NCBI GenBank assembly: GCA_016718265.1
Contig: JADKDZ010000007.1
Location: 197,622-261,621 of the forward strand
Length of the DNA stretch: 64,000 bases
Direction: 5' to 3'
Origin: Uliginosibacterium sp.
GTDB taxonomy: Bacteria > Pseudomonadota > Gammaproteobacteria > Burkholderiales > Rhodocyclaceae
Below, piece by piece: positions 25,525 through 58,608 of the stretch. Below the pieces are notes generated by a model that saw only the letters and a program-made list of their open reading frames with translations, was not told the DNA's origin and ran no database searches. A program made the position numbers and the translations under genes. Every line of letters begins with the position of its first letter. Positions within the stretch are counted from its first letter, which is position 1.

Positions 25525-25624
25525 GGAGCCCGGATTCCGGCTTACCGCCTACTTCCAGGCTACCCGTTGCGCTTCTTCGCTGAAGGTCGTCGCCCTCCTG
25601 AAAAATGATTGCGAGAACCTATCC

Positions 25625-38222: not shown

Positions 38223-38824
38223 TGGAGGCGGAACTTCGACGTTGTGCCTGGCTGGGCACCTGGGCAGGCGCGGCGGACCCGGTCTACCGTCGTTATCATG
38301 ATGAAGAATGGGGCATCCCGTGCCGGGATGAGCGCCAGCTTTTCGAGATGCTGCTGCTGGAGGGTGCGCAGGCCGGACTCTCGTGGATCACCGTCCTGAA
38401 GAAGCGCGACAACTATCGTCAGGCATTTTCCAATTTTGATTCTGATGCCATAGCGGCCTACACGGAAGCAGACGTACAACGCCTGATTGCCAACCCCGGC
38501 ATCATCCGGAACCAGGCCAAGATTCGCGCCTTCATCGGCAATGCGAAAGCATGGAACGCACTGCGCGCACGCGAAGATGCTGTTGCCTGGCTCTGGCAGT
38601 TCGTCGGCGGCAGTCCCGTTCAGAATCAATGGCAAACCATCGCCGAGGTACCGGCTTCAACGCCGGCCTCCGACGCCATGGCGCATGCGCTGAAAAAGCT
38701 CGGCTTCCGCTTTGCGGGCACCACCATCTGCTACGCTTTCATGCAGGCTACCGGCATGGTCAACGACCACACCACCGACTGCTACCGCCATGCTGCGCTG
38801 CTGCATGCCTCGGGCGGTACCTGA
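38219..38824 (+). CDS. tag: DNA-3-methyladenine glycosylase I
   Basis: 201 aa. Motifs YHDEEWGIP, LLLEGAQAGLSWITVLKKR and C-terminal zinc-ligand region HTTDCYRH. Confidence 0.9.
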   Translation: MMEAELRRCAWLGTWAGAADPVYRRYHDEEWGIPCRDERQLFEMLLLEGAQAGLSWITVLKKRDNYRQAFSNFDSDAIAAYTEADVQRLIANPGIIRNQAKIRAFIGNAKAWNALRAREDAVAWLWQFVGGSPVQNQWQTIAEVPASTPASDAMAHALKKLGFRFAGTTICYAFMQATGMVNDHTTDCYRHAALLHASGGT

Positions 38825-47128: not shown

Positions 47129-47778
47129 TCGGCGTATTCGCCGACGTATTGGCGGTGGATCGTGCTCAGCGCGTCGGCTGTCTGGCCAAAGGCGTCGGTG
47201 CGCTCGCCGAAGGCATCAAAGCTCGAGGATTTCCTGGATGCTTTGCGCAGGGTCGGTGACGAGGCGAGCGGCGCCTTGGCCTCCGGCGTGGTAAGACCGC
47301 CTGTATTCGTTAGCTCTTTATATCGAGCCATGAACTGCGCCCATTCCTTGTCCGGGGTGTGGAGGTAGCGGGTCTCAGCGTTGCCGGTCTTGTCGAGTGT
47401 AACTTCGGCGCAGGGCCGCGCAGCGTCGATGAGGTGCAGCGTCTCGACCGTCTTGCCGCCCATGGTGACGCGGGGTTTTGATGCGCTGGCCCTGGGCGTC
47501 GCGTTCGTACTCGGTCTTCTGGCTACCAGTGTCGACAAGGATCAGGCCGTTGCCGGCTGTCCCAGCGTAGCTGGTGCTGTTGCCGTCGGGGCTCTGCTTC
47601 TTGAGCAGATTGCCGTTGGCATCCCAGCTGTAGGTAGTGATCAGGCCATCGCTGTCTTCGCTGAGCAGGCGATCGTTGCTGTCGTACTGGTAGCGGGAGG
47701 TGAGGGTGCTGCCGCCTTGCGTGACCTGCTGGCTGAGGCGGTTGCCGACGGCGTCGTAGCGATATGTCTGCCAAGCCG
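47129..47778 (-). pseudogene. RHS/YD-repeat core fragment 1, truncated at both ends and internally disrupted
   Basis: Near-identical at the nucleotide level to 52953-53585. Reads ...GGKTVETLHLIDAARP...FDAFGERTDAFGQTADALSTIHRQYVGEYA and then stops being RHS at 47129, 20 nt from the aapM stop. An AT-rich patch of about 56 bp (47295-47350) replaces about 49 bp of core. Confidence 0.8.
47304..47349 (+). repeat. 46-nt AT-rich element, copy 1 (embedded in RHS fragment 1)
   Basis: TATTCGTTAGCTCTTTATATCGAGCCATGAACTGCGCCCATTCCTT. About 90% identical to 59978-60025 in the same orientation. Confidence 0.85.
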
Positions 47779-48045
47779 CCCGCAGCGGCGATCTTCACGG
47801 AGGCGTCGCTGTCAGGCAGCAGGCATCGGCATCACAGCGATGGATGGCTGAAGACTCTTGCTGCAGGCGGGTGCTGGCGTGGTTGGCTTGTTAAAGAGCG
47901 GGATGGGTTTAGTACAGCAGGCAAAACGTCAATTGAACCAAGGCCTCAAAACGACATTGACATCGCCTGCGGCGACCCGGATTACGCTGCGATGCAGCGA
48001 ATCCAGGCTACTCCCTTGCTACGGAGTACGCCGTACGCGGTGCTT
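47779..48045 (-). repeat. Conserved cassette leader, copy 1
   Basis: Shares blocks GCAGCGGCGA-CTTCA, CATCACAGCGATGG, TTAAAGAGCGGGAT, ACGACATTGACATCGCCTGCGGCGACCC, GATTACGCTGCGATGCAGC-AATCCAGGCTACTC and CTACGG...CCGTA with the other leader copies. Confidence 0.75.
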
Positions 48046-48099
48046 CAATTGACTTTGCGAACCTCTGCATTTCAAGCGCTTTGGCCTGTTGCTTGTCGG

Positions 48100-48712
48100 A
48101 CCACGGCCCCATCTATCAGTCCCCAAAAAACTCTTCTCTTGAAACCGAGAAATACAATTTCTTTCTGTTTCTTACTTCGAGTCTTTCGTCACTGTCAAGC
48201 CGAAAAATGCCTTAAGGGAAGAGAGTCCTGGGGCTAATACCGAATTCTCTCGTATTGAATGCTTCGATAGAGGCAACATCCATCGGATCGCAACTCATCT
48301 CTCTGAGATCGGCAAACTCGGATGGATCTCCCGGTGCAATCAGCACCGATCACCTTCAAAACCCAGAAACAAGGCGCGGATAAACGACGACGGCAAACGG
48401 TCCAGGCCGCATGTCAGCCAGCACATACTGGCGTCCTCAAGCGTAAAGACCACGGCGAACTGTGTGACCGCTACGCTGAACTCAGCAAAGCCGAATACAT
48501 CGAAATCGAGCAGACCGTCCCCCAGAACCTCTTCACCCGCTCTGCCAGCGGACAGTATCCTATCTGGGCGCGTCCACTCGGAAAGCGATCTATCTGGAAC
48601 CCTCTGCGACGAATATCTTTTCAATAACCCTTTCTGTGTCGCAAATCTCGGTCACAGCAAGGCAATGATCGATGGCGATTCGGATTGGGATATAAAAATT
48701 TCTATAAATCAT
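48100..48712 (-). pseudogene. Immunity-position gene ImmA, frameshifted copy
   Basis: The ATG at 48712 lies 2 nt after the toxin stop. MIYRNFYIPIRIAIDHCLAVTEICDTERVIEKIFVAEG then loses frame (GAGGGTTCC versus GAGGGCTTCC in the intact copy at 56214-56831). Homology resumes in ORF 48340-48624. Confidence 0.7.
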
Positions 48713-48713
48713 A

Positions 48714-50358
48714 TCAGGGCCAATAAATAATAGAGCCGTCACCGAGGATAGCGATTATTTCAGTTGGGGAGCGTCCATTTCTTTCGAGCCTAGCGATCTC
48801 GCTGTCAAGCAACTCACGCGTCAGGCCGCCGTAGTCGCCATCGATAATGAAACGATCTGGCTGTCCTTTCTTTAGCGATTCTCGAATGTTTTGGTACACG
48901 CCATTCTTGCCTTTCACGGTTTTGATGTCATACATGTGTCCATTGTAAGGGGGCGTCAGCTCTGCCCCCACCTTCTCCGCGCAGGTAAATCCTCGCCCCA
49001 GTCTTCTCTGCCAAATGCTCTGCAGCAGCGATTTCTTTAGCGGTCGCAGGCGTTTTCTTCGACCACCGAACCCATCCCAATCCCTTTTTTGATTGAATCA
49101 AACCGCGGGTGATCAGCTTGGCACCCCAAGGCGCTACGGATGCGATCACCCCCCAGCCCATTGAACTGCTGTAACTTGCACCGCCATCCAGTGCATTTGA
49201 TATCAAGTTGCTGCCAAAGTCGGCCTGAATGTTTGCCAATACACTCTGGATATTGGACGCGGCCCCCAGACCACCCAGCGTAAACAACCCACTCGGATCC
49301 CGCCCGCCAACCGGATCCCCATGCGCATACCCATACTTGTTCAACGACAAAGGCTGAGTCAGCCTCCCCGCAAACTCATCCATCGACACAAAGCGCCCAA
49401 GCTGCGGGTCGTAGTGGCGGGGGCGCAGGTTGTAGAGCCGGTGCGGTCGGCGTATTCGCCGACGTATTGGTGGTGGATCGCTCGGCGCGTCGGCGGACTG
49501 CCCGAAGGCGTCGCTGCGCTTGCCGAAGGCGTCAAAGCTAAGGATTTCCTGGATGCTTTGCGCGGGGTCGGTGACGAGGCGGGTGCTGCCTGCTGTCGGC
49601 GTGGTAGAGCCGGGTCTGGCTGCCATTTTGCTCGGCGATGAGGTCGCCGAGTCCGTCCGGGGTGTGAGGTAGCGGGTTTCGCTGCTGCCCGTTTTGTCGA
49701 GTACAACTTCGGCATAGGGGCGTGCCTCGTCGATGAGGTGCTGGGTTTCAACCGATTTTGCCGCCCATGGTGACACGGGTTTGATGCGCTGCCCCTGGGC
49801 GTCGCGTTCGTACTCGGTTTTCTGGCTGCCGGTATCGACGGATCAGGCGGTTGTGGCTGTCCCAGCCGTGGGTGGTGCTGTTGCCGTCGGGGCTCTGCTT
49901 GAGAAGATTGCCGTTGGCATCCCAGCTGTAGGTAGTGATCAGGCCATCGCTGTCTTCGCTGAGCAGGCGGTCGTTGCTGTCGTACTGGTAACGGGTGGTG
50001 AGGGTGCTGCCAGCTTGCGTCACCTGCTTGCTGAGGCGGTTGCCGACGGCGTCGTAGCTGTAGCGGGTGAGCCGGATGTCGCCAGCTTCGTCCACCTGTT
50101 CTTCCAGCAGTTTGCCCGCCTTGTCGTACTGGTAGGCGATCTGGCGCTGGCCGCTGGCGAGCTTTTCGGTGACGGCCTGCTTGCGGCCGTTGGCATCTCA
50201 GCGTGTAGTTGAATTGGGCAGAGACTGCCGTCGGCTTTCAGATGCTCGACTTCGGTGAGCTGGTTGGCGTCGTTGTAGCGGTAGTGGCTTTGTGCGCCGC
50301 TGGCGTGGGTGATGCCGGTGCGGTTGCCGATGGCGTCGACGCGATGGGTCTGATGAGC
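48714..50358 (-). pseudogene. RHS core fragment 2 fused to toxin C-terminal domain CT-A (multiple frameshifts)
   Basis: YD repeats (RVDAIGNRTGITHASGAQSHYRYNDANQLTEVEHL, YSYDAVGNRL, YSWDANGN). Core end RHYDPQLGRFVSMDEFAGRLTQPLSLNKYGYAHGDPVGGRDPSGL. Then CT-A: ...AAEHLAEKTGARIYLRGE...YNGHMYDIKTVKGKNGVYQNIRESLKKGQPDRFIIDG...ILGDGSIIYWP. Confidence 0.8.
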
Positions 50359-50585
50359 CGCTTGCAGCGGCGACCTTCATAGGGGTGTCGCTGTCAGCCA
50401 ATAGGGCATCAGCATCACAGCGATGGCAGGCTGAAGCCCCATGCTGCAGGCGGGTTCCGGCGTAGTTGTGTTTTTAAAGAGCGGGATGGGTTTGGCGCAC
50501 GGCAACTCAGTCCAAAGCTTCCAAACGACATTGACATCGCCTGCGGCGACCCTCGGATTACGCTGCGGTGCAGCTAATCCAGGCT
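50359..50585 (-). repeat. Conserved cassette leader, copy 2 (left part; continues at 51808-51845 after the IS110 insertion)
   Basis: Collinear with 55995-56204. Homology stops exactly at AATCCAGGCT (50576-50585) and resumes at CTACTCTCTTGCTACGG (51808 onward). Confidence 0.8.
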
Positions 50586-50841
50586 TGTATGTTCTGTCTG
50601 CGCCCTTATGAAGCAGCGGATAGGGGCGCCGAGGTGGAGGGACGATCCAGGCTATCTGCCGTGTCAGCGGACAGACTTCCGTAGAAATGTCCCCATTTCG
50701 TTTGCGTCAGCGTCGATTAGGAATGCAGCGCGTGGCAGCCCTGTCGTGATCGCCACGACGGCCAATAGAAGCAAGCACGCCAAAGCAAACGCCTCCTCAG
50801 CAAGTCCATTTTAGCCGCAGCACTGGCCCAGATCTGTACGC
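50586..50841 (+). ncRNA. Candidate bridge (guide) RNA region in the IS110 left end
   Basis: Non-coding left end upstream of the recombinase ORF, as in IS110-group elements. It contains ATCCAGGCT (50645-50653), identical to the 9 nt of target immediately left of the insertion including the CT core (50577-50585). RNA ends and fold were not determined. Confidence 0.35.
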
Positions 50842-51804
50842 ATGAATACGCAAGCCTTATCTATCGGTGTGGATGTCAGTCTCGCAGAATTGGTCATCGC
50901 CCACTTTGGTGACACGACGCCACTCATCAAAATCCCCAACAATGCAGTGCAAATCAAGCGCTGGCTCAAAGCCTTACCGCCCGCCTGCACGATCGGTATG
51001 GAAGCGACGGGCGCCTATCATCGTCTGCTGGCCGACCTGGCTTTTGCTGCGGGCCATACCGTCTTTGTACTCAATCCACGTGACGTTGCGCTCTACCTCA
51101 AGAGCTTGCGCACTCGTGGAAAGACCGATGTGCTTGATGCACGCGGCATTGCCCGTTACACGCACAACGAGACAGACAAGTGCCATGCGTACGTGCCACT
51201 CACGGCACAGCAACAGACGATCACGACGCTGATTCAGCGCCGTCATCAAGTCGTTAAAAGCCGCACCAGCTTGCGCATGAGTTTTGCCGACACAACGCTT
51301 TGCACCAAAGCGTGCTCCAAACTGATGTGCGCCTTTGACGCCTTGCTTGCCGATATCGACAACCAGCTCAAAGCGCTGATCGCAGCCGATGAAGCCTTGA
51401 ATGCACGTTGCAAGCACTTGCGCTCCATTCAAGGTGTCGGTCCTTTGATCAGCGCCGCATTGGCCATGCGTATGAGTCGAGTACATTATGCCAACAGCGA
51501 TGCACTGGTGGCTGCCATCGGGCTCGACCCCAGGCCACGTGAGTCAGGTCAATACACTGGCACACGTCACCTCTCCAAGCGCGGAAACCCAGAAGAGCGG
51601 CGATTGCTCTATCTGGCCGCAGTCAGTGCTTGTCGCAACCCAACCTGGAAAGCCATTCAGACCACACTGCTCGGCAAGGGACTGCCTTCCACTGCGGTCT
51701 ATTGCATCATCGCCCGCAAGATCTGCGCATTGCATTTGCTATCTGGAATACAGGGGTGCCGTACGACCCGAACCTCGTCGGAAAATGCTTGCTCTCCAAC
51801 ATAG
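50842..51804 (+). CDS. IS110-family (DEDD) transposase; C-terminal approximately 25 aa possibly frameshifted
   Basis: 320 aa. IGVDVSLAEL (DEDD N-domain), GMEATGAYH, C-terminal HhH region IQGVGPLISAALA. A family-like tail LRIAFAIWNTGVPYDPNLVGK is read in another frame from about 51725. Confidence 0.85.
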   Translation: MNTQALSIGVDVSLAELVIAHFGDTTPLIKIPNNAVQIKRWLKALPPACTIGMEATGAYHRLLADLAFAAGHTVFVLNPRDVALYLKSLRTRGKTDVLDARGIARYTHNETDKCHAYVPLTAQQQTITTLIQRRHQVVKSRTSLRMSFADTTLCTKACSKLMCAFDALLADIDNQLKALIAADEALNARCKHLRSIQGVGPLISAALAMRMSRVHYANSDALVAAIGLDPRPRESGQYTGTRHLSKRGNPEERRLLYLAAVSACRNPTWKAIQTTLLGKGLPSTAVYCIIARKICALHLLSGIQGCRTTRTSSENACSPT

Positions 51805-51929
51805 AATCTACTCTCTTGCTACGGCGTACGCTGTACGCGGTGGCGCGAAGATAAATCGCCGAATCGGCTTGACTTCGGCATATAGAATTGCGCACGCATC
51901 GCCGCCGCAATACGGATAATCAGAGTCAC

Positions 51930-52256
51930 TCACGATAAACCGTAAGCTATTCCTGTCGCCGCAAGAGCATTGTTTGCTACAAATATATTAAGTTCGCTAC
52001 CTAAAGGTACTATTTCAGTTATTAAGCATCCAAAATAGTTCTCCATTTCTTTGACAGCACTAATACAAATAACGGAGTCGTACTGCCGGCCTACTCTAAT
52101 TATATCTCCTTCAATTTTATCGAAACCGCAAGAGGCCATTACTCCCCAGGTAGCATTAGCAAAGGTCGGTAATGACTGACAATCTCTTCTGGCAAAGCGC
52201 CATCTAAGGATGGATCCAAAATTTTAGCTAGACTTTATAAGAGCTCTAGAATACAT
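51930..52256 (-). pseudogene. Immunity-position gene ImmC (possibly SUKH/SMI1-like), apparent frameshifts
   Basis: Low-GC segment 25 nt downstream of the CT-C stop. Pieces read MYSRALIKS / AKILDPSLDGALPEEIVSHYRPLLMLPG / GVMASCGFDKIEGDIIRVGRQYDSVICISAVKEMENYFG... The LPEE...Y...GG pattern resembles SUKH immunity proteins (weak, from memory). Confidence 0.4.
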
Positions 52257-52280
52257 GTGCTAATGAAATGATCGATTTAT

Positions 52281-53605
52281 TTAAAAGTTCAAGATCGAAA
52301 ACGTCAAGACGCCATTCTTAAATATCCAAGGATCGATAGATCTTGAGAAGTTTGCGACCGACACGGCAGAATCGTTGATGGTGACTTTAATAATCGCAAC
52401 ATACGCGGGGTTGGTGTTTGCATAAGCGATAGCTTCTTCCATAGTGAAAGCAAACTGCTTCATACCTGTCGGTCTTGGCCCCCAAGAGAATATTTTACCC
52501 GCTATGATCGACTCATACTCAGCCACTTCCACTGCTCGAAATAAGGTTACAGTTTTGCCACCTCGAGCTATCAAAGAAAGCGAGCCAAGATTCTTTTCTA
52601 TCAAACTTATAGAGCCAGCAGAAGCACCTACAGCAAGTTTATTAATGATAAGAGAGATAAGCAGCTCTTTCGCCGCACCGCTATAGTCACCCTTAAGCAG
52701 ACTAGATGTCACGCAATACGACGTAATAGCAACGTTTGCCAAAATTGCAGATATATTGACGCCCGCCATTACTCCCCAAGCGTCATCCGCCCACTCGGAT
52801 CCTGCCCGCCAATCGGATCCCCGTGCGCATACCCATACTTGTTCAACGACAAAGGCTGAGTCAGCCTCCCCGCAAACTCATCCATCGACACAAAGCGCCC
52901 AAGCTGCGGGTCGTAGTGGCGGGCGCGCAGGTTGTAGAGGCCGGTGTGGTCGGCGTATTCGCCGACGTATTGGCGGTGGATCGTGCTCAGCGCGTCGGCT
53001 GTCTGGCCAAAGGCGTCGGTGCGCTTGCCGAAGGCATCAAAGCTGAGGATTTCCTGGATGCTTTGCGCAGGGTCGGTGACGAGGCGGGTGCTGCCTTGGC
53101 CGTCGGCGTGGTAGAGCCGGGTCTGGCTGCCGCTTTGCTCGGCGATGAGCTCGCCGAGCCCGTCCGGGGTGTGGAGGTAGCGGGTCTCGCTGCTGCCGGT
53201 TTTGTCGAGTACGACTTCGGCATAAGGGCGTGCCTCGTCGATGAGGTGCAAGGTCTCGACCGTCTTGCCACCCACGGTGACACGGGTCTTGACGCGCTGA
53301 CCCTGGGCGTCGCGTTCGTACTCGGTTGTCTGGCTGCCAGTGTCGACGCGGATCAGGCGGTTGTGGCTGTCCCAGCCGTAGGTGGTGCTGTTGCCGTCGG
53401 GGGGCTTCTTGAGAAGATTGCCGTTGGCATCCCAGCTGTAGGTGGTGATCAGGCCATCGCTGTCTTCGCTGAGCAGGCGGTCATTGCTGTCGTACTGGCA
53501 GCGGGTGGTGAGGGTGCTGCCCGCTTGCGTGACCTGCCTGCTGAGGGCGGTTGCCGACGGCGTCATGGCTGTAGCGGGTGAGCCGCCCGCAGAGGCGATC
53601 TTCAC
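52281..53605 (-). pseudogene. RHS core fragment 3 fused to toxin C-terminal domain CT-C
   Basis: ORF 52769-53605 carries the RHS core end (…RHYDPQLGRFVSMDEFAGRLTQPLSLNKYGYAHGDPIGGQDPSGRMTLGE*). ORF 52281-52769 (MAGVNISAILANV...TVTLFRAVEVAEYESIIAGKIFSWGP...) is its continuation. One extra G in the run at 52774-52777 gives MTLGGVMAGVNISAILANV, parallel to FTLGGLGAASNIQSVLANI (CT-A) and MSLGGMMSGLNGSVSLALL (CT-B). Confidence 0.75.
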
Positions 53606-53935
53606 AGGGCATCGCTGTCAGCCAGTAGGCATCACCATTACATCGGTGGCAGGTTTTACTCAGAAGTCAGTATTTAGAAGACACATTTTGTGCAGACAGC
53701 ACTTGTTTACTGGCGGATAACAATTCTCACTGTCCGCTAAGTTACTGACTTCTGAGTAAGACTCTTGTTGCTAGCGGGGTGCGGCGTAGTTGGATTGTTA
53801 AAGAGCGGGATTGGTTTAGCGCACGGCAACTTGGCCCATGGCTTCAAAACGACATTGGAATTGCTTGATGCAATCCGAATTACGCTGCGATGCAGATAGT
53901 CTGGCTACTCTCTTGATGCAGAGTATCACGTACGT
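53586..53935 (-). repeat. Conserved cassette leader, copy 3 (carries a MITE-like insertion)
   Basis: Same blocks as the other leaders but more diverged (…AGTCTGGCTACTCTCTTGATGCAGAGTATCACGTACG…), interrupted at 53656-53759. Confidence 0.7.
53656..53759. mobile_element. 104-bp MITE-like element with perfect 17-bp terminal inverted repeats
   Basis: TTACTCAGAAGTCAGTA (53656-53672) and TACTGACTTCTGAGTAA (53743-53759). Absent from the three other leader copies at the equivalent point (GGCTGAAG|ACTCTTG). Confidence 0.65.
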
Positions 53936-53943
53936 AGGCTCTC

Positions 53944-54388
53944 TTAACCACGCTGTAGGCTATCGAGAAATGGAAAGCCCTTTTCCATCAGTTTTGTCAT
54001 AACAAAATCGATTGCCTCCGCCACAGAATCGGTACTAACAGGCAACCAATCAAATTCCCTGTCGCAAAGAGCATGAATCCGTACGGACCTCTTGAAGTTC
54101 ATGAGCCGTTAAAAGTCCTCCTTTGTTACCAACCAGGGGCGCTGCATAAGCTCCGGAAAGCGCTTAAGGCGAGACCATGCCAATTCAAGTGTCACTTTGT
54201 CTTCGCCCCTCTTGAGTTCGGGTGTCAAGATCAAAAAATAGCAGCAGATCTCCGTGCTCTTTTGCCATACAGTTTCTGCAGGCCAGACGTACATCGACTT
54301 AATCTTCGTTTGTACAAATTCTGGAGCGGCCTGCGTGATTTTCGTAATCCAATTCCTTAACGATTTTCAGCCGTAACTTTTTATCCAT
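53944..54388 (-). pseudogene. Immunity-position gene ImmB, apparent frameshifts
   Basis: The ATG at 54388 lies 4 nt after the CT-B stop. Pieces read MDKKLRLKIVKELDYENH / PEFVQTKIKSMYVWPAETVWQKSTEICCYFLILTPELKRGEDKVTLELAWSRLKRFPELMQRPWLVTKEDF / NFKRSVRIHALCDREFDWLPVSTDSVAEAIDFVMTKLMEKGFPFLDSLQRG. Low GC. Confidence 0.45.
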
Positions 54389-54392
54389 CTCA

Positions 54393-55994
54393 CTAAATCC
54401 CCATCAAGAAAATCCGTAGGTACTGCCCCAGCTCAACAAGTCCCTGGACATGCTTGATTGCGCCTGCCGTTTCCCCAAGCTCAGCAAGCACTAAGGCCAT
54501 CTGCGCTTCGCTCGGTGCTGCCCAGGTAAAACAGCACAACTTCTGCGCCCTTGACTTCAGCCACCGCCGTCGCTGTGCGCATTTGTCCAACCAAGCGTGT
54601 CAAAGCGCCGCCTGCCTTCCTGGGGAGTCCGTATTTCACCTCCAGATAAGACAATCGATTCCCCCGCTGTAATAAGGAAGTCGATCACCCTCCGTCCGCC
54701 AGGCCCAAACAGTTCGACGCCGCCTTCTACCACACCGCGCGATCCTACGCTACGAACAAGCACGGTCTCAACAGCTTTCTCCACAGCCACACCAAGATTT
54801 CGTAATGCTAAGCCACCTGCGGCACGCGAAAGAGCGAATCCCGCCTGAACCTGCAGCAATGCTAGGCTGACGCTTCCATTGAGGCCTGACATCATCCCGC
54901 CAAGCGACATCTGACCACTTGGATCAATGCTGTTTACAGGATCCCCATTCGCATACCCATACTTGTTCAACGACAAAGGCTGAGTCAGCCTCCCCGCAAA
55001 CTCATCCATCGACACAAAGCGCCCAAGCTGCGGGTCGTAGTGGCGGGCGCGCAGGTTGTAGAGGCCGGTGTGGTCGGCGTATTCGCCGACGTATTGGTGG
55101 TGGATCGCGCTCAGCGCGTCGGCGGACTGCCCGAAGGCGTCGCTGCGCTTGCCGAAGGCGTCAAAGCTAAGGATTTCCTGGATGCTTTGCGCGGGGTCGG
55201 TGACGAGGCGGGTGCTGCCTTGGCCGTCGGCGTGGTAGAGCCGGGTCTGGCTGCCATTTTTGCTCGGCGATGAGGTCGCCGAGTCCGTCCGGGGTGGAGG
55301 TAGCGGGTTTCGCTGCTGCCCGTTTTGTCGAGTACAACTTCGGCATAGGGGCGTGCCTCGTCGATGAGGTGCTGGGTTTCAACCGTTTTGCCGCCCGTGA
55401 CACGGGTTTTGATGCGCTGGCCCTGGGCGTCGCGTTCGTACTCGGTTTTCTGGCTGCCGGTATCGACGCGGATCAGGCGGTTGTGGCTGTCCCAGCCGTA
55501 GGTGGTGCTGTTGCCGTCGGGGCTCTGCTTCTTGAGAAAGATTGCCGTTGGCATCCCAGCTGTAGGTAGTGATCAGGCCATCGCTGTCTTCGCTGAGCAG
55601 GCGGTCGTTGCTGTCGTACTGGTAACGGGTAGTGAGGGTGCTGCCAGCTTGCGTCACCTGCTTGCTGAGGCGGTTGCCGACGGCGTCGTAGCTATAGCGG
55701 GTGAGCCGGATGTCGCCAGCTTCGTCCACCTGTTCTTCTAGCAGTTTGCCCGCCTTGTCGTACTGGTAGGCGATCTGGCGCTGGCCGCTGGCGAGCTGTT
55801 CTGTCACGGCCTGCTTGCGACCGTTGGCATCCAGCGTGTAGCTGAATTGGGCAAGCAGACTGCCGTCGGCTTTCAGATGCTCGACTTCGGTGAGCTGGTT
55901 GGCGTCGTTGTAGCGGTAGTGGCTTTGTGCGCCGCTGGCGTGGGTGATGCCGGTGCGGTTGCCGATGGCGTCGACGCGATGGGTTCTGATGAGC
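54393..55994 (-). pseudogene. RHS core fragment 4 fused to toxin C-terminal domain CT-B (frameshifts)
   Basis: The longest core fragment (LKADGSLLAQFSYTLDANGRKQAVTEQLASGQRQIAYQYDKAGKLLEEQVDEAGDIRLTRYSYDAVGNRLSKQVTQAGS...). Core end ...NKYGYANGDPVNSIDPSGQMSLGG, then CT-B ...VRSVGSRGVVEGGVELFGPGGRRVIDFLITAGESIV / YLEVKYGLPRKAGGALTRLVGQMRTATAVAEVKGAEVVLFYLGS... The D...EVK spacing resembles PD-(D/E)xK nucleases. Confidence 0.75.
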
Positions 55995-56240
55995 GCTTGC
56001 AGCGGCGACCTTCTCAGGGGGTGTCGCGGTCAGCCAAGAGGCAGCAGCATCACAGCGATGGAAGGCTGAGGCGCCTTGCTGCTGGCGGGCTTGTTAAAGA
56101 GCGGGATCGTTTTAGCGCACGGCACTTCGGTACAAAACTTTAAAAACTACTTTGGCATCTTTTTCGGCGACCCAGATTACGCTGCGATGCAGCTAATCCA
56201 GGCTACTCTCTTCTTACGGAGGACGCCGTATGCGGTATCC
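55995..56240 (-). repeat. Conserved cassette leader, copy 4
   Basis: Best-preserved uninterrupted copy. Contains ATCCAGGCT|ACTCTC (56196-56210) and the palindrome TACGGAGGACGCCGTA overlapping the ImmA stop. Confidence 0.75.
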
Positions 56241-56831
56241 ATCAGCCCCAAAAAACTCTTCTCTGGATACAGAGAAATAGAAGTCTTTCTTTTGCCCGAG
56301 CCTTTCATCACTGCTCAAGCCGAAATACGCCTTAAGGGAAGAGAGTCCTTGAGGGCTAATGCCATATTCTCGAAAATTAAACGCTTCGATAGAAGCAACA
56401 TCCATCGGTTCGCAACTCATCTCTTTGATGTCGGCGATCACAGATGGCTCTTCTGGTGCGATCAGTACTCGATCACCTTCAAACCCCAGAAACAATACGC
56501 GGATAAACGATAGCAAACGGTCGAGACTGCATGTGAGCGCACACATGTTGGCGTCCTCAAGCTCAAAGACCACGGCGAATTGTGTGACCGCTACGCTGAA
56601 CTCAGCAAAGCCGAATACATCGAAATCGAGCAGACCGTCTCCCAGAACCTCCTCTACCCGCTCTGCCAGCGACAGTGTCCTATCTGGGCGCGTCCACTCG
56701 GAAAAGCGATCTATCTGGAAGCCCTCTGCGACGAATATCTTTTCAATAACCCTTTCTGTGTCGCAAATCTCGGCCACAGAAAGGCGATGATCGATCGCGA
56801 TTTCAATTGGAATGCGGAAATTTTTATACAT
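56214..56831 (-). CDS. Immunity-position protein ImmA, intact copy (orphan)
   Basis: 205 aa from the ATG at 56831, 4 nt after the toxin-tail stop; the same relative position is used by the 48712 copy. The track ORF extends to a GTG at 56864. Acidic protein with no family recognised by eye. Low GC. Confidence 0.6.
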   Translation of the reverse strand: MYKNFRIPIEIAIDHRLSVAEICDTERVIEKIFVAEGFQIDRFSEWTRPDRTLSLAERVEEVLGDGLLDFDVFGFAEFSVAVTQFAVVFELEDANMCALTCSLDRLLSFIRVLFLGFEGDRVLIAPEEPSVIADIKEMSCEPMDVASIEAFNFREYGISPQGLSSLKAYFGLSSDERLGQKKDFYFSVSREEFFGADGYRIRRPP

Positions 56832-56835
56832 CGTA

Positions 56836-57044
56836 TTAAGGCCAGTAAACAATCGAGCCATCACCCAGGATAGCGACTATTTCAGTTGGCGAATCACCAT
56901 TTCTTTCAAGCCTAGCGATCTCGCTGTCAAGCAACTCACGAGTCAGGCCGCCAGGCCTGCCATCGATAATAAAGCGATCCGCTTGTCCTTTCTTTAGCGA
57001 TTCTCGAATGTTTTGGTACACGCCATTCTTGCCTTTCACGGTTT
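56836..57044 (-). pseudogene. 3' remnant of toxin domain CT-A (last about 67 codons)
   Basis: VKGKNGVYQNIRESLKKGQADRFIIDGRPGGLTRELLDSEIARLERNGDSPTEIVAILGDGSIVYWP. Nucleotide homology to 48714-48915 breaks at about 57044. Confidence 0.7.
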
Positions 57045-57663
57045 GCTCTCGGAGAACTGCAAATCAAGCCCAGTTCGACTGATCTCCTCGGTAACTAAAC
57101 CTACCCTGCTGTCTTCATATACTTGAGCTGCCGTTTTCAGGAATAGGCTCAGGCGTTCAATCCGTACAGCGGCTATAACGGCACTATTCTCCAAGACAAG
57201 CACAAGGGCGAGGGCAAATCGGAGCAGATGGGTGTAAGGCATAAATATGAAGTTGCGGAAACCGGATTGAACAAAATATGTGGCGCGAACTGAAGCGGCG
57301 ACTGTACTCGACACATCACCGAAGGAAGAGCCTGGAGACTAGCCGGGCGAGCGCTTCCCAGCCAAAAAACTCGCAATTGTATCTTTTCGTGAATTCGAAC
57401 CCCGCACCTCCCGACGAACGTTAAGTTTCATCGAGAGGAAAGAAGATCGTCTGGCGGCCTTGAAACTGTCAGCTGTTCGGCAGTGACTAAAATGGCTCAA
57501 GCAGACCTCTGCCATGGGCGCGCTCAAGCGCCCGCCTGAAGCGTGTTGAACGAAGCCGCTCCGCGGAGGATTCGCGTGTTGCTGCGGGCCGAAATATCCT
57601 GCACGTCCATCCCCCTCGTGTGTGAGGGGGTGATTGTGCAATATTTCGCGAGGACCTTCCATC

Positions 57664-58608
57664 ATGCAAAGCGACTTCCCTGAGCCATTTGCCCAGCAGT
57701 ACCAGAAGCATCTCAAACATCTTCGCCTGCAGGGGCTGCAACCCAAGACCATTGACGCGTATGCACGTGCGATTCGTTGCCTGGGCGCGCACTTCTCGTT
57801 TCGGATTGATGACTTGTCCGAGGCCCAACTGCTGGACTATTTCAGCGCACGTCTGGCCTCACATTCGTGGAGTGCGGTCAAACTCGATCTGTACGGCTTG
57901 AAGTTCTACACCGAGCACGTCTTGCGCAAACCTTGGGTCATGCCCCGGCTGATCAAGCCGCCGAAGTGCGTGCGCCTGCCGGACATCGTGACGGTCGAGG
58001 AAGTACAGCGGATCGTGGCGGCGACACGGGTGCTGAGCTACCGCGTGTTCTTCTTCACCTCTACAGCCTGGGGCTGCGTCTGGGGGAGGGGCTGCGCCTT
58101 GAGGTGGGGGACCTTGATGCAGTGCGTGCCCGCGTGCATATCCGGGACGCCAAGGGCAACCGGGATCGCCTGGTGCCACTGCCCACGGCGACGCTCGATC
58201 TGTTGCGCAGTTTCTGGCAAACCCATCGCAATCCGGTGTTGTTGTTCCCCAACCGTCACGGCGGTTTGTCGGGTGCGCACACGGCGGCAACACCACTTGA
58301 TCGCGGAGGCGTGCAGATCAGCTTGCGCAAGTGGTGGCCGCCTGCGGCCTAAAAAGATCTCGCCCCACAGCCTGCGTCACAGCTATGCCACGCACTTGAT
58401 CGAAGCGGGTGTCGATCTGATCGAAGTGCAGAAGATCCTCGGCCACCACAGCATCCTCACCACGGCGCGCTACACCCACCTGACCGATCAGACCAAGCAC
58501 CACGCCATCGACCGCATCAACAGCTTGATGGATGGTTTTACGGTGCGCTGGGGACGGTGCAGGAGCGCTCGCAATGATCCGTCTGGCCTCTGTCATCGAA
58601 ACCTTTGA
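57664..58608 (+). pseudogene. Tyrosine recombinase (phage-integrase family), three frameshifts
   Basis: N-terminal SAM-like domain ([23 protein letters not shown]). The catalytic region is readable only by switching frames ([20 protein letters not shown]...[14 protein letters not shown]...; ...[42 protein letters not shown]). Switches at CC 58058-58059, G 58331 and A5 58351-58355. Confidence 0.8.

What the first reader, a model, noticed from the sequence alone, without database searches (positions are those of the whole stretch)
50577..51809. IS110-family element inserted at a CT core in one leader; its non-coding left end contains a 9-nt copy of the target flank (bridge-RNA guide candidate)
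- **Junctions.** Comparison with the uninterrupted leader gives base-exact junctions: AATCCAGG-CT | IS | CT-ACTCTC. CT is present on both sides.
- **Guide candidate.** The 256-nt non-coding segment upstream of the transposase contains ATCCAGGCT at 50645-50653. This is identical to the target sequence immediately left of the insertion including CT (50577-50585).
- **Chance.** A given 9-mer is expected in 256 nt with probability of about 0.001.
- **Context.** Work published in 2024 on IS621 showed that IS110-family recombinases use an IS-encoded bridge RNA. Its target-binding loop matches the target flanks around a CT core, and in the IS110 subgroup the RNA is encoded upstream of the recombinase.
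- **Other sites.** Two other leaders retain the intact site ATCCAGGCT-ACTC (48001-48013 and 56196-56208), so they are predicted further targets.
- **Not found.** I could not find a convincing right-target or donor guide by eye. Only 6-nt matches to the right end ATAGAA(T) were seen, near 50690 and 50765.
Basis: partly seen in the sequence, partly recalled or inferred. Interest (0 to 1): 0.65.

Follow-up and report, generated by a model that had tools for sequence, protein, structure and literature searches.

The report
IS110 insertion sequence with bridge RNA
This is an ordinary IS110-family mobile element whose non-coding left end encodes a bridge RNA, and the RNA's guide segments match both the site it sits in and its own ends, as already described for IS621.

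Summary

**The element.** A 1,224-bp IS110-family element (50586-51809) interrupts one copy of a repeated intergenic "leader" at AATCCAGG-CT|IS|CT-ACTCTC.

**The guides.** The 256-nt left end folds like the IS621 bridge RNA.

**Evidence from 80+ relatives.**
- LTG matches the left flank at 7.98 of 9 positions, against 4.72 for non-cognate pairs (p<1e-4).
- RTG matches the right flank at 3.57 of 5 positions, against 1.74 (p<1e-4).
- The LDG 4-mer equals the right-end 4-mer in 46 of 46 elements, across five different 4-mers.
- The Vogesella relatives carry ATCCGGG in both flank and guide, where the window has ATCCAGG in both.
- A covariance model built without the window finds only 50629-50800 in the 64 kb (E 7e-25).
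- Near-identical copies in other samples lie in different flanks but share ATCCAGG-CT-AC.

**Caveats.** This copy carries five private indels. Three lie in the donor loop and two put residues 295-314 out of frame. They may be recent decay or assembly error. There is no direct RNA or activity evidence for this locus.

**Verdict.** A new member of a known kind, of modest interest.

The parts
50577..50585 (+). Left target half ATCCAGG plus core CT. It forms the 3' arm of a REP-like hairpin in the leader.
50586..51809 (+). IS110-family element: 1,222 bp plus one copy of the CT core (51808-51809).
   Evidence: Leader alignment. Coordinates. Contigs from other samples match only 50577-51811.
50588..50593 (+). 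TATGTT, the -10-like half of the predicted circle-junction promoter (inferred).
   Evidence: Same geometry as IS621 TTGCAG-N17-TATTAT, read from L085. Only 7 of 12 positions match the consensus.
50600..50629 (+). 5' stem-loop (GCGCCCUUAU / AUAGGGGCGC). Position 50600 is the predicted start of the bridge RNA.
50632..50698 (+). Target-binding loop module. The basal stem is 50632-50643 with 50689-50698.
   Evidence: Stem is 98.7% paired and 8 of 8 pairs show compensatory changes. Also.
50645..50653 (+). Left target guide (LTG) AUCCAGGCU.
   Evidence: Identical to 50577-50585. Covaries with the flank in relatives. Model positions 17-25.
50655..50675 (+). Inner hairpin of the target loop (UCUGCCG..CGGACAGA, with one unpaired A).
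50681..50686 (+). Right target guide GUAG (50681-84), the reverse complement of CT-AC, followed by the handshake positions AA (50685-86).
   Evidence: A50685 is complementary to the last base of the left donor (T51807) and not to the last base of the left target (G50583).
50699..50791 (+). Donor-binding loop module. Basal stem CGUUUGC/GCAAACG (50699-705 with 50785-791). Upper stem GCGU/ACGC (50710-13 with 50777-80).
   Evidence: The basal stem varies in sequence but stays complementary across clades.
50716..50726 (+). Left donor guide AU[UA]GGAAU, followed by GC where many relatives have CU.
   Evidence: The 4 nt GAAU equal the right-end GAAT. The 4-mers match in 46 of 46 relatives across 5 variants.
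50727..50763 (+). Inner hairpin of the donor loop (CGUGGC..GCCACG, with a bulged A). It carries two of the private deletions.
50765..50776 (+). Right donor guide AU-[AGAA]-GCAAG, which pairs discontiguously with CT-TGTAT. The handshake base is C50776.
   Evidence: GAU..GCAAGC is conserved in all relatives. The layout matches IS621 A157-U158/G161-G165 (PMC11208158).
50792..50798 (+). CCUCCUC, a post-loop segment complementary to the 5' arm of the target-loop stem. Its role is unexplained.
50842..51804 (+). DEDD/serine recombinase ORF, 320 aa. D11, E54, D96, D99 and S235 are present.
51723..51782 (+). Stretch read out of frame relative to all relatives (residues 295-314).
51789..51794 (+). TTGCTC, the -35-like half of the predicted junction promoter. 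It lies inside the coding region (inferred).
51801..51811 (+). Left donor ATAGAAT (it overlaps the stop codon TAG), the right core CT, and the right target AC.
48001..48011 (+). Intact 11-bp target ATCCAGGCTAC in another leader.
56196..56206 (+). Intact 11-bp target ATCCAGGCTAC in another leader.

Best explanation
The segment 50586-51809 is an IS110-group insertion sequence, that is, a bridge-recombinase element.

**The RNA.** Its left end encodes a bridge RNA of about 190-200 nt, roughly 50600-50795. The RNA has a 5' hairpin and two internal-loop modules.

**Target loop.**
- It reads the host site ATCCAGG-CT-AC.
[quoted passage not shown] **Donor loop.**
- It reads the element's own joined ends, ..ATAGAAT-CT-TGTAT..
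- LDG (50716-24) pairs with the right end.
- RDG (50765-75) pairs with the left end.

**Reaction.** The DEDD/Ser recombinase (50842-51804) bound to this RNA would exchange strands at the CT core. That inserts the circular form into the 3' arm of a REP-like hairpin and leaves CT on both sides.

**Shown here**
- The junctions.
- The protein family and catalytic residues.
- The RNA fold, by covariation.
- Covariation between guides and target, and between guides and donor.
- The same target at independent insertions.

**Inferred**
- Transcription from a promoter rebuilt at the circle junction.
- The RNA's ends.
- The handshake pairing.
- The actual activity of this copy.
For: **Junctions and chance**
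- Junctions and CT duplication.
- The 9-mer statistics.

**Protein**
- PF01548 plus PF02371.
- NF033542 scores 167.7 bits against a cut-off of 140.
- The catalytic residues align with IS621 D11/E60/D102/D105/S241.

**Compensatory change**
- Vogesella and MAG relatives have flank ATCCGGG-CT with guide AUCCGGGCU.
- The window has an A at that position in both flank and guide.

**Statistics over relatives**
- LTG vs LT: 7.98 of 9 cognate against 4.72 non-cognate, 0 of 10,000 permutations.
- RTG vs RT: 3.57 of 5 against 1.74, 0 of 10,000 permutations. Twelve elements match 7 of 7.
- LDG vs LD 4-mers: 46 of 46 across GAAU, GGAU, GGAA, GAAC and GAAA.

**Fold**
- 96-97% of cells are paired, against 38-45% when partners are slid.
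- 17 of 25 and 22 of 25 pairs show compensatory changes.

**Independent covariance model**
- One hit in the window, 50629-50800, 111 bits, E 7e-25.

**Independent insertions**
- In runs X1, X2, X3, X5 and X7, near-identical copies lie in other flanks.
- Each match to the window starts at 50577 and ends at 51811 (X1-X3), 51812 (X7) or 51818 (X5).

**Published layout**
- It agrees with IS621 (PMC11208160, PMC11208158).
- My recalled IS621 RNA sequence was verified at 100% identity in E. coli genomes.
Against: - The single-sequence fold energy is no better than shuffles (z +0.64).
- Rfam has no matching family.
- The clade model does not detect the IS621 RNA. The protein is only 28% identical to IS621. 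The link to the experimentally characterised RNA therefore rests on architecture, not on sequence homology.
- RTG complementarity here is only 4 nt. The fifth position, C50680, mismatches all three leaders.
- The LDG is short and does not pair with the core (GC instead of CU).
- The junction promoter matches only 7 of 12 consensus positions. No promoter is found inside the integrated element.
- There are no RNA reads for this locus. Only low-depth contigs of relatives appear in RNA-type libraries.
- The copy has five private indels that may disable it.
Confidence: 0.9

Rival explanations
1. The element is what it looks like, but this copy is a dead relic. Its donor loop and the recombinase C-terminus have been damaged by slippage mutations. 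It can no longer move, and the two intact sites nearby are not at risk from it.
For: - There are five private indels: GC missing after 50727, A missing after 50745, CA missing after 50775, C missing after 51722, and one extra A at 51782. The four runs that hold the same flanks or other copies across these places carry the family state throughout; two more runs carry it except at one place each, X5 at 51722 and X7 at 50727.
- Residues 295-314 are out of frame.
- The model score is 111 bits against 117 for the Vogesella copies, with gaps in the donor loop.
Against: - Run X6 matches the window with no substitutions but has the family state at the two ORF indels.
- Four of the five indels lie in homopolymer or dinucleotide runs. 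That pattern also fits assembly error.
- The family frame is still perfectly readable (LRIAFAIWNTGVPYDPNLVG), so any damage is very recent.
- The catalytic residues are untouched.
Confidence: 0.35
2. The 9-nt identity is not a guide. It is either a chance match, or target DNA picked up by the element's end during an aberrant recombination. The left end would then serve only as a 5' UTR or protein-binding site.
For: - An E. coli IS621 copy (L085) has a duplicated left-end segment joined exactly at its own LTG. This shows that recombination at guide DNA does happen.
- No transcript has been shown for this locus.
Against: - Chance is about 0.001.
- The guide lies at a fixed position in a conserved, covarying fold in 80 relatives and tracks their different flanks.
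- Three further guides behave the same way.
Confidence: 0.03
3. The repeated 'leaders' are integron attC sites, and the element is an attC-targeting IS1111-type element working with the nearby tyrosine recombinase.
For: - A tyrosine recombinase ORF lies at 57634-58608.
- The cassettes are repeated.
- GTTAAAG-like motifs occur in the leaders.
Against: - The recombinase is far below the integron-integrase cut-offs (70.8 against 265 bits).
- The cassettes are orphan Rhs C-terminal fragments (TIGR03696 and YD repeats).
- The long non-coding end is the left one (256 nt against 3 nt) and holds the RNA. That is the IS110-group layout, not IS1111.
- The target is a REP-like hairpin.
Confidence: 0.02

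Closest known systems
IS621 (E. coli), the prototype bridge-RNA IS110 element
   Same: - Domain pair and catalytic residues.
- CT core.
- The left end begins TGTAT and the right target begins AC.
- 9-nt LTG that includes the core, and 4-nt RTG GUAG.
- RDG of the form AU..GCAAG, with flipped-out bases and a G·T wobble.
- First handshake position complementary to the non-cognate DNA in both loops.
- Target at the end of a REP hairpin (IS621: ATCAGGCCTAC; here: ATCCAGGCTAC).
- Junction promoter geometry of -35, then 17 nt across the core, then -10 at left-end bases 3-8.
   Different: - Only 28% protein identity.
- The clade RNA model does not detect the IS621 RNA.
- The right end is 3 nt, so the donor sequence and the -35 lie inside the coding region and the stop codon.
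- The LDG appears discontiguous (AU-nn-GGAAU) and here does not pair with the core.
- About 45 nt lie between the RNA and the start codon.
ISPpu10 (Pseudomonas putida), bioRxiv 10.64898/2026.03.19.712850
   Same: - The target lies in a REP-type intergenic repeat.
- The left target forms the 3' arm of a stem-loop (section 7 of the preprint).
   Different: - No sequence comparison with ISPpu10 was made here.
- Whether the hairpin adds specificity for this element is untested.
Unnamed copies in Vogesella amnigena, V. urethralis and a MAG (L001-L004)
   Same: - 81-83% protein identity.
- Same ends and same RNA.
- Same target type, a REP-like hairpin.
   Different: - LTG and target are ATCCGGG instead of ATCCAGG.
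- RTG is CCAGUAG, matching up to 7 nt.
- They lack the window's five indels.

Membership tests
IS110 family, IS110 group (bridge recombinase element) | [quoted passage not shown] | tested here: met
   PF01548 at E 6.6e-18. D11, E54, D96 and D99 are conserved in the family alignment and align with IS621 E60/D102/D105.
IS110 family, IS110 group (bridge recombinase element) | C-terminal Tnp domain (PF02371) with the conserved serine | tested here: met
   PF02371 at E 1.2e-17. S235 aligns with IS621 S241 and is invariant.
IS110 family, IS110 group (bridge recombinase element) | Curated family model score above its cut-off | tested here: met
   NF033542 'IS110 family RNA-guided transposase' scores 167.7 bits against a cut-off of 140.
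IS110 family, IS110 group (bridge recombinase element) | No terminal inverted repeats, and a 2-bp core (CT) on both sides of a site-specific insertion | tested here: met
   Ends are TGTATGTT.. and ..CATAGAAT, which are not inverted repeats. CT lies at 50584-85 and 51808-09.
IS110 family, IS110 group (bridge recombinase element) | The long non-coding end is the left end and holds the RNA (in the IS1111 group it is the right end) | tested here: met
   The left end is 256 nt and the right end 3 nt. The RNA model hit at 50629-50800 lies in the left end.
IS110 family, IS110 group (bridge recombinase element) | An RNA with two internal loops flanked by stems (target loop and donor loop) | tested here: met
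   Four helices are 96-97% paired, and 17-22 of 25 pairs show compensatory changes.
IS110 family, IS110 group (bridge recombinase element) | Target-loop guides match the insertion site: LTG matches the top strand of left flank plus core, and RTG is the complement of core plus right flank | tested here: met
   9 of 9 and 4 of 4 here. Covariation across relatives has p<1e-4.
IS110 family, IS110 group (bridge recombinase element) | Donor-loop guides match the element's joined ends | tested here: met
   LDG 4-mer equals LD 4-mer in 46 of 46 elements across 5 variants. RDG GCAAG/AU matches CTTGT/AT. Pairing of the invariant parts is inferred.
IS110 family, IS110 group (bridge recombinase element) | Handshake guides complementary to the non-cognate DNA | tested here: inconclusive
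   The first position fits in both loops here (A50685 with donor T, C50776 with target G). The target-loop position does not covary across relatives.
IS110 family, IS110 group (bridge recombinase element) | A promoter rebuilt across the circle junction | tested here: inconclusive
   TTGCTC-N17-TATGTT has the same geometry as IS621 but matches only 7 of 12 positions. Relatives have TTGACC-N17-TATGGT.
IS110 family, IS110 group (bridge recombinase element) | The RNA is transcribed and bound by the recombinase, and recombination is RNA-guided | not testable with these tools
   Only low-depth contigs of close relatives appear in RNA-type libraries. There is nothing for this locus.
IS621-type bridge RNA (sequence/structure homology) | Detectable by a common covariance model | tested here: not met
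   The clade model R1 gives no hit at E<=10 on the IS621 locus L085. Rfam holds no bridge-RNA family that matches. The similarity is one of architecture only.

The most novel reading that the evidence does not exclude
**This clade's bridge RNA may differ mechanistically from IS621 in three ways.**
1. The 5' arm of the target-loop stem has a second covarying partner downstream of the donor loop (CCACCCCAG; CCUCCUC in the window). This could be a closing helix or a conformational switch. Such a switch might link RNA folding to translation of the recombinase about 45 nt further on.
2. The left donor guide seems to pair discontiguously (AU-nn-GGAAU). In the window's subclade it has lost pairing with the core.
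3. The donor sequence and the -35 box are embedded in the last codons and the stop codon of the recombinase gene.
Probability: 0.2. Interest if true: 0.4.

Novelty: new member of a known kind. Interest (0 to 1): 0.3.

Why it matters
**A positive control.** A reader working from sequence alone correctly located a bridge-RNA guide, and comparative data then recovered all four guides.

**For the genome.**
- It explains an interruption in an array of orphan Rhs toxin cassettes.
- It predicts two further insertion sites, at 48001 and 56196.

**For the field.**
- It adds a well-sampled clade of 80+ natural guide/target/donor sets with a 3-nt right end and a short left donor guide.
- It does not change the picture published in 2024-2026.

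Tried and rejected
- **Rfam scan of 50300-52100.** Only chance-level snoRNA and sRNA matches.
- **Single-sequence MFE fold.** Not better than shuffles. The structure became clear only from alignments.
Rejected. One lies in the RTG/handshake stretch (50682-88). The other lies in the variable bulge of the RDG (50765-70), which differs among relatives (AGAA, AGAU, UUGACC and others).
- **My first gapped guess for the LDG, A(U)UAG(G)AAU(G)C.** Replaced by AU[nn]GGAAU once the right-end variants showed which four positions covary.
- **Regex anchoring of the loops.** Gave false anchors, so alignment columns and a covariance model were used instead.
- **Integron/attC reading of the leaders.** Rejected.
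- **Clade model against IS621.** No hit.
- **Exact-protein look-up of the window's recombinase.** Not on record.
- **PolyA RNA run X21.** No reads.
- **Plasmid collection.** Only relatives at 32% identity or less.
- **Organism of the window.** Not determined. The nearest copies of the IS are in Vogesella.
Full report
**Observation**

The region was read directly. It was compared with the two uninterrupted copies of the same repeated segment at about 47700-48120 and 55900-56320.
- The interrupted copy lines up base for base on both sides of an insertion: ..GCAGCTAATCCAGG-CT | 50586..51807 | CT-ACTCTCTTGC..
- CT is present at 50584-85 and at 51808-09.
- ATCCAGGCT occurs four times in the window, at the three leaders and at 50645-50653 inside the insertion. 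Shuffles give 0.56 expected occurrences for the whole window, and none of 100 shuffles reached four.

**The protein**

- The ORF 50842-51804 (320 aa) matches PF01548 and PF02371.
- It also matches NCBIfam NF033542, 'IS110 family RNA-guided transposase', above the curated cut-off.
- D11, E54, D96, D99 and S235 are conserved. They align with the IS621 catalytic residues named in PMC11208158.
- Identity to the IS621 recombinase is only 28%.

**What a guide should look like**

The two 2024 papers give the IS621 layout.
- The LTG is 9 nt on the 5' side of the first internal loop. It pairs with the bottom strand, so it reads like the top-strand left flank plus CT.
- The RTG is 4 nt on the 3' side and is the complement of CT plus two bases.
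- The second loop holds an LDG for the right end.
- It also holds an RDG that pairs discontiguously with the left end.
- Two handshake positions follow RTG and RDG.

I checked my recalled IS621 RNA sequence against E. coli genomes. It matches at 100% and sits directly upstream of the annotated IS621 transposase.

**Relatives**

- A genome scan found four loci in Vogesella amnigena, V. urethralis and a MAG, at 81-83% protein identity.
- A metagenome scan with a family alignment gave 80 more loci at 42-58% identity.
- In the three full Vogesella-type loci the left flank is TTATCCGGG-CT and the loop reads AUCCGGGCU. In the window both carry an A at that position.
- All of these elements end in ..CCAACATAGAAT-CT and are followed by AC.

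**All four guides**

An alignment of the left ends shows that nearly all elements start CT|TGTATG and share one architecture.

Window coordinates:

| Feature | Coordinates | Sequence or note |
|---|---|---|
| 5' hairpin | 50600-29 | |
| Target-loop basal stem | 50632-43 / 50689-98 | |
| LTG | 50645-53 | AUCCAGGCU |
| Target-loop inner hairpin | 50655-75 | |
| RTG | 50681-84 | GUAG |
| Handshake (target loop) | 50685-86 | AA |
| Donor-loop basal stem | 50699-705 / 50785-91 | |
| Donor-loop upper stem | 50710-13 / 50777-80 | |
| LDG | 50716-24 | AU[UA]GGAAU |
| Donor-loop inner hairpin | 50727-63 | |
| RDG | 50765-75 | AU[AGAA]GCAAG |
| Handshake (donor loop) | 50776 | C |

Guide statistics across relatives:
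- LTG vs left flank: 7.98 of 9 in 44 unique cognate pairs, against 4.72 for non-cognate pairs, with 0 of 10,000 permutations as high.
- RTG vs right flank, non-core positions: 3.57 of 5 against 1.74, with 0 of 10,000 permutations. Twelve elements match 7 of 7, for example CCAAAAG/CTTTTGG and GCGAAAG/CTTTCGC.
- The four LDG bases next to the core equal the last four bases of the right end in 46 of 46 elements. Five variants occur: GAAU, GGAU, GGAA, GAAC and GAAA.

Further points:
- The RDG motif GAU..GCAAGC and the left-end start TGTATG are invariant, so they fit the model but cannot covary.
They are not the donor guide.

**Fold**

- RNAalifold and explicit pair counts support four helices.
- 96.1% of cells are paired on the 49-sequence alignment and 97.0% on the 80-sequence model alignment. 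Sliding the partners gives 38-45%.
- 17 and 22 of 25 pairs show compensatory changes.
- The basal stem of the donor loop is different in sequence but complementary in every clade inspected.

**Independent model test**

- A covariance model was built from 49 distant relatives, leaving out the window and the Vogesella copies.
- It gives a single hit in the 64-kb window: 50629-50800, 111 bits, E 7e-25. Its target-guide positions fall on 50645-53.
- It does not detect the IS621 RNA, and Rfam has nothing.
- The tie to the characterised RNA is therefore architectural.

**Other insertions of the same element**

- Contigs from other public runs carry near-identical copies.
- In X1, X2, X3, X5 and X7 the flanks differ from the window. 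Each match starts at 50577 and ends at 51811 (X1-X3), 51812 (X7) or 51818 (X5).
- The shared sequence is therefore the element plus ATCCAGGCT on the left and at least CTAC on the right.
- X4 and X6, both wastewater, share the window's own flanks.

**The target and its setting**

- The left target is the 3' arm of an imperfect palindrome, CCyGGATTA..TAATCCAGG, which folds as single-stranded DNA. The Vogesella targets fold likewise.
- IS621 and many IS110 elements target REP sequences (PMC11208160).
- A stem-loop with the left target as its 3' arm has been described as a specificity element for ISPpu10.
- The 'leaders' are intergenic units of about 330 bp that precede orphan Rhs C-terminal cassettes on the minus strand (YD repeats, TIGR03696).
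- Exact 11-bp targets remain at 48001 and 56196.
- A fourth leader has a degenerate site at 53898-53908.

**Expression**

- No sigma-70-like promoter is found in the integrated element.
- Joining the ends gives TTGCTC (51789-94), a 17-nt spacer across the core, then TATGTT (50588-93).
- IS621 has the same geometry, TTGCAG-17-TATTAT. Relatives have TTGACC-17-TATGGT.
- This agrees with the published junction promoter and with weak RNA expression from integrated copies (PMC11208160, PMC13626964).
- The match here is weak, at 7 of 12 positions.
- RNA-type libraries hold low-depth contigs of close relatives that cover the left end. A polyA run gave nothing.
- Transcription of this locus is inferred.

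**State of this copy**

Compared with the copies laid on it from other runs, with two single-site exceptions, including those in the same flanks, the window differs at five places:
- GC is missing after 50727.
- A is missing after 50745.
- CA is missing after 50775.
- C is missing after 51722.
- There is one extra A at 51782.

The first three lie in the donor loop, and the model alignment shows the gaps. The last two shift residues 295-314 out of frame. Reading with the family states restores LRIAFAIWNTGVPYDPNLVG and raises identity to L001 from 83% to 89%.

Four of the five indels lie in short repeats, and run X6 shows no substitutions at all. Assembly error and very recent slippage are therefore both possible.

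**Comparison and verdict**

- The element works like IS621 and meets every sequence-level criterion of the IS110 group that could be tested.
- It differs in having a 3-nt right end, so the donor and the -35 lie inside the coding region.
- It also has a short, apparently discontiguous LDG without core pairing.
- A third segment (50792-98) is complementary to the 5' arm of the target-loop stem and covaries in part (87% paired, 6 of 9 pairs with compensatory changes).
- It is a new member of a known kind.

Noticed in passing
window 47129-57021, minus strand: Array of four repeated modules, with start-to-start spacings of about 2.3, 3.5 and 2.1 kb. They are orphan Rhs C-terminal fragments (YD repeats plus the Rhs-associated core). 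Each is followed by variable sequence and preceded by the 'leader'. No full-length rhs gene was seen next to them.
   Followed up: partly
Its hairpin and target are degenerate (AGTCTGGCTAC at 53898-53908). An AT-rich stretch of about 120 nt (53640-53760) that the other copies lack lies next to it.
   Followed up: partly
window 57634-58608, plus strand: Tyrosine recombinase ORF (Phage_integrase plus SAM-like N-terminal domain) at the edge of the Rhs cassette array. It scores far below the cut-offs of the XerC, XerD and integron-integrase models.
   Followed up: partly
window 50727, 50745, 50775, 51722, 51782: Five indels private to the window, relative to otherwise near-identical public copies. 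Most lie in homopolymer or dinucleotide runs. If they are assembly errors, other genes in the window may carry similar frameshifts.
   Followed up: partly
window 50792-50798 with 50631-50637; alignment A7 columns 1-9 with 231-239: A segment after the donor loop (CCACCCCAG in most relatives) is complementary to the 5' arm of the target-loop stem and partly covaries with it. It overlaps the well-supported stem. It may be a closing helix or an alternative fold.
   Followed up: partly
window 50645-50655: As DNA, the LTG plus the next base (ATCCAGGCTAT) is a 10-of-11 copy of the element's own target. The element therefore carries a near-target inside itself.
   Followed up: no
L085 1483-1620 (E. 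coli IS621 locus): The first 72 bp or so of the IS621 left end are duplicated in tandem. The joint lies exactly after the LTG DNA ATCGGGCCT, as if the element had recombined at its own guide sequence.
   Followed up: no
L052 about 1600-1700; L024 about 400-450: L052 has a tandem duplication of the last 45 bp or so of the right end (..CCTTGACCTGAACCATAGAAT twice). The upstream flank of L024 contains another right-end-like CAACATAGAATC. Both suggest nested or half-site recombination products.
   Followed up: no
window 25525-25563 and 38741-38751: One-mismatch copies of the 11-bp target (TTCCAGGCTAC and ATGCAGGCTAC). The first lies 28 nt from an inverted ATCCGGGCTCC, which looks like a REP pair. 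These may be further weak targets.
   Followed up: no
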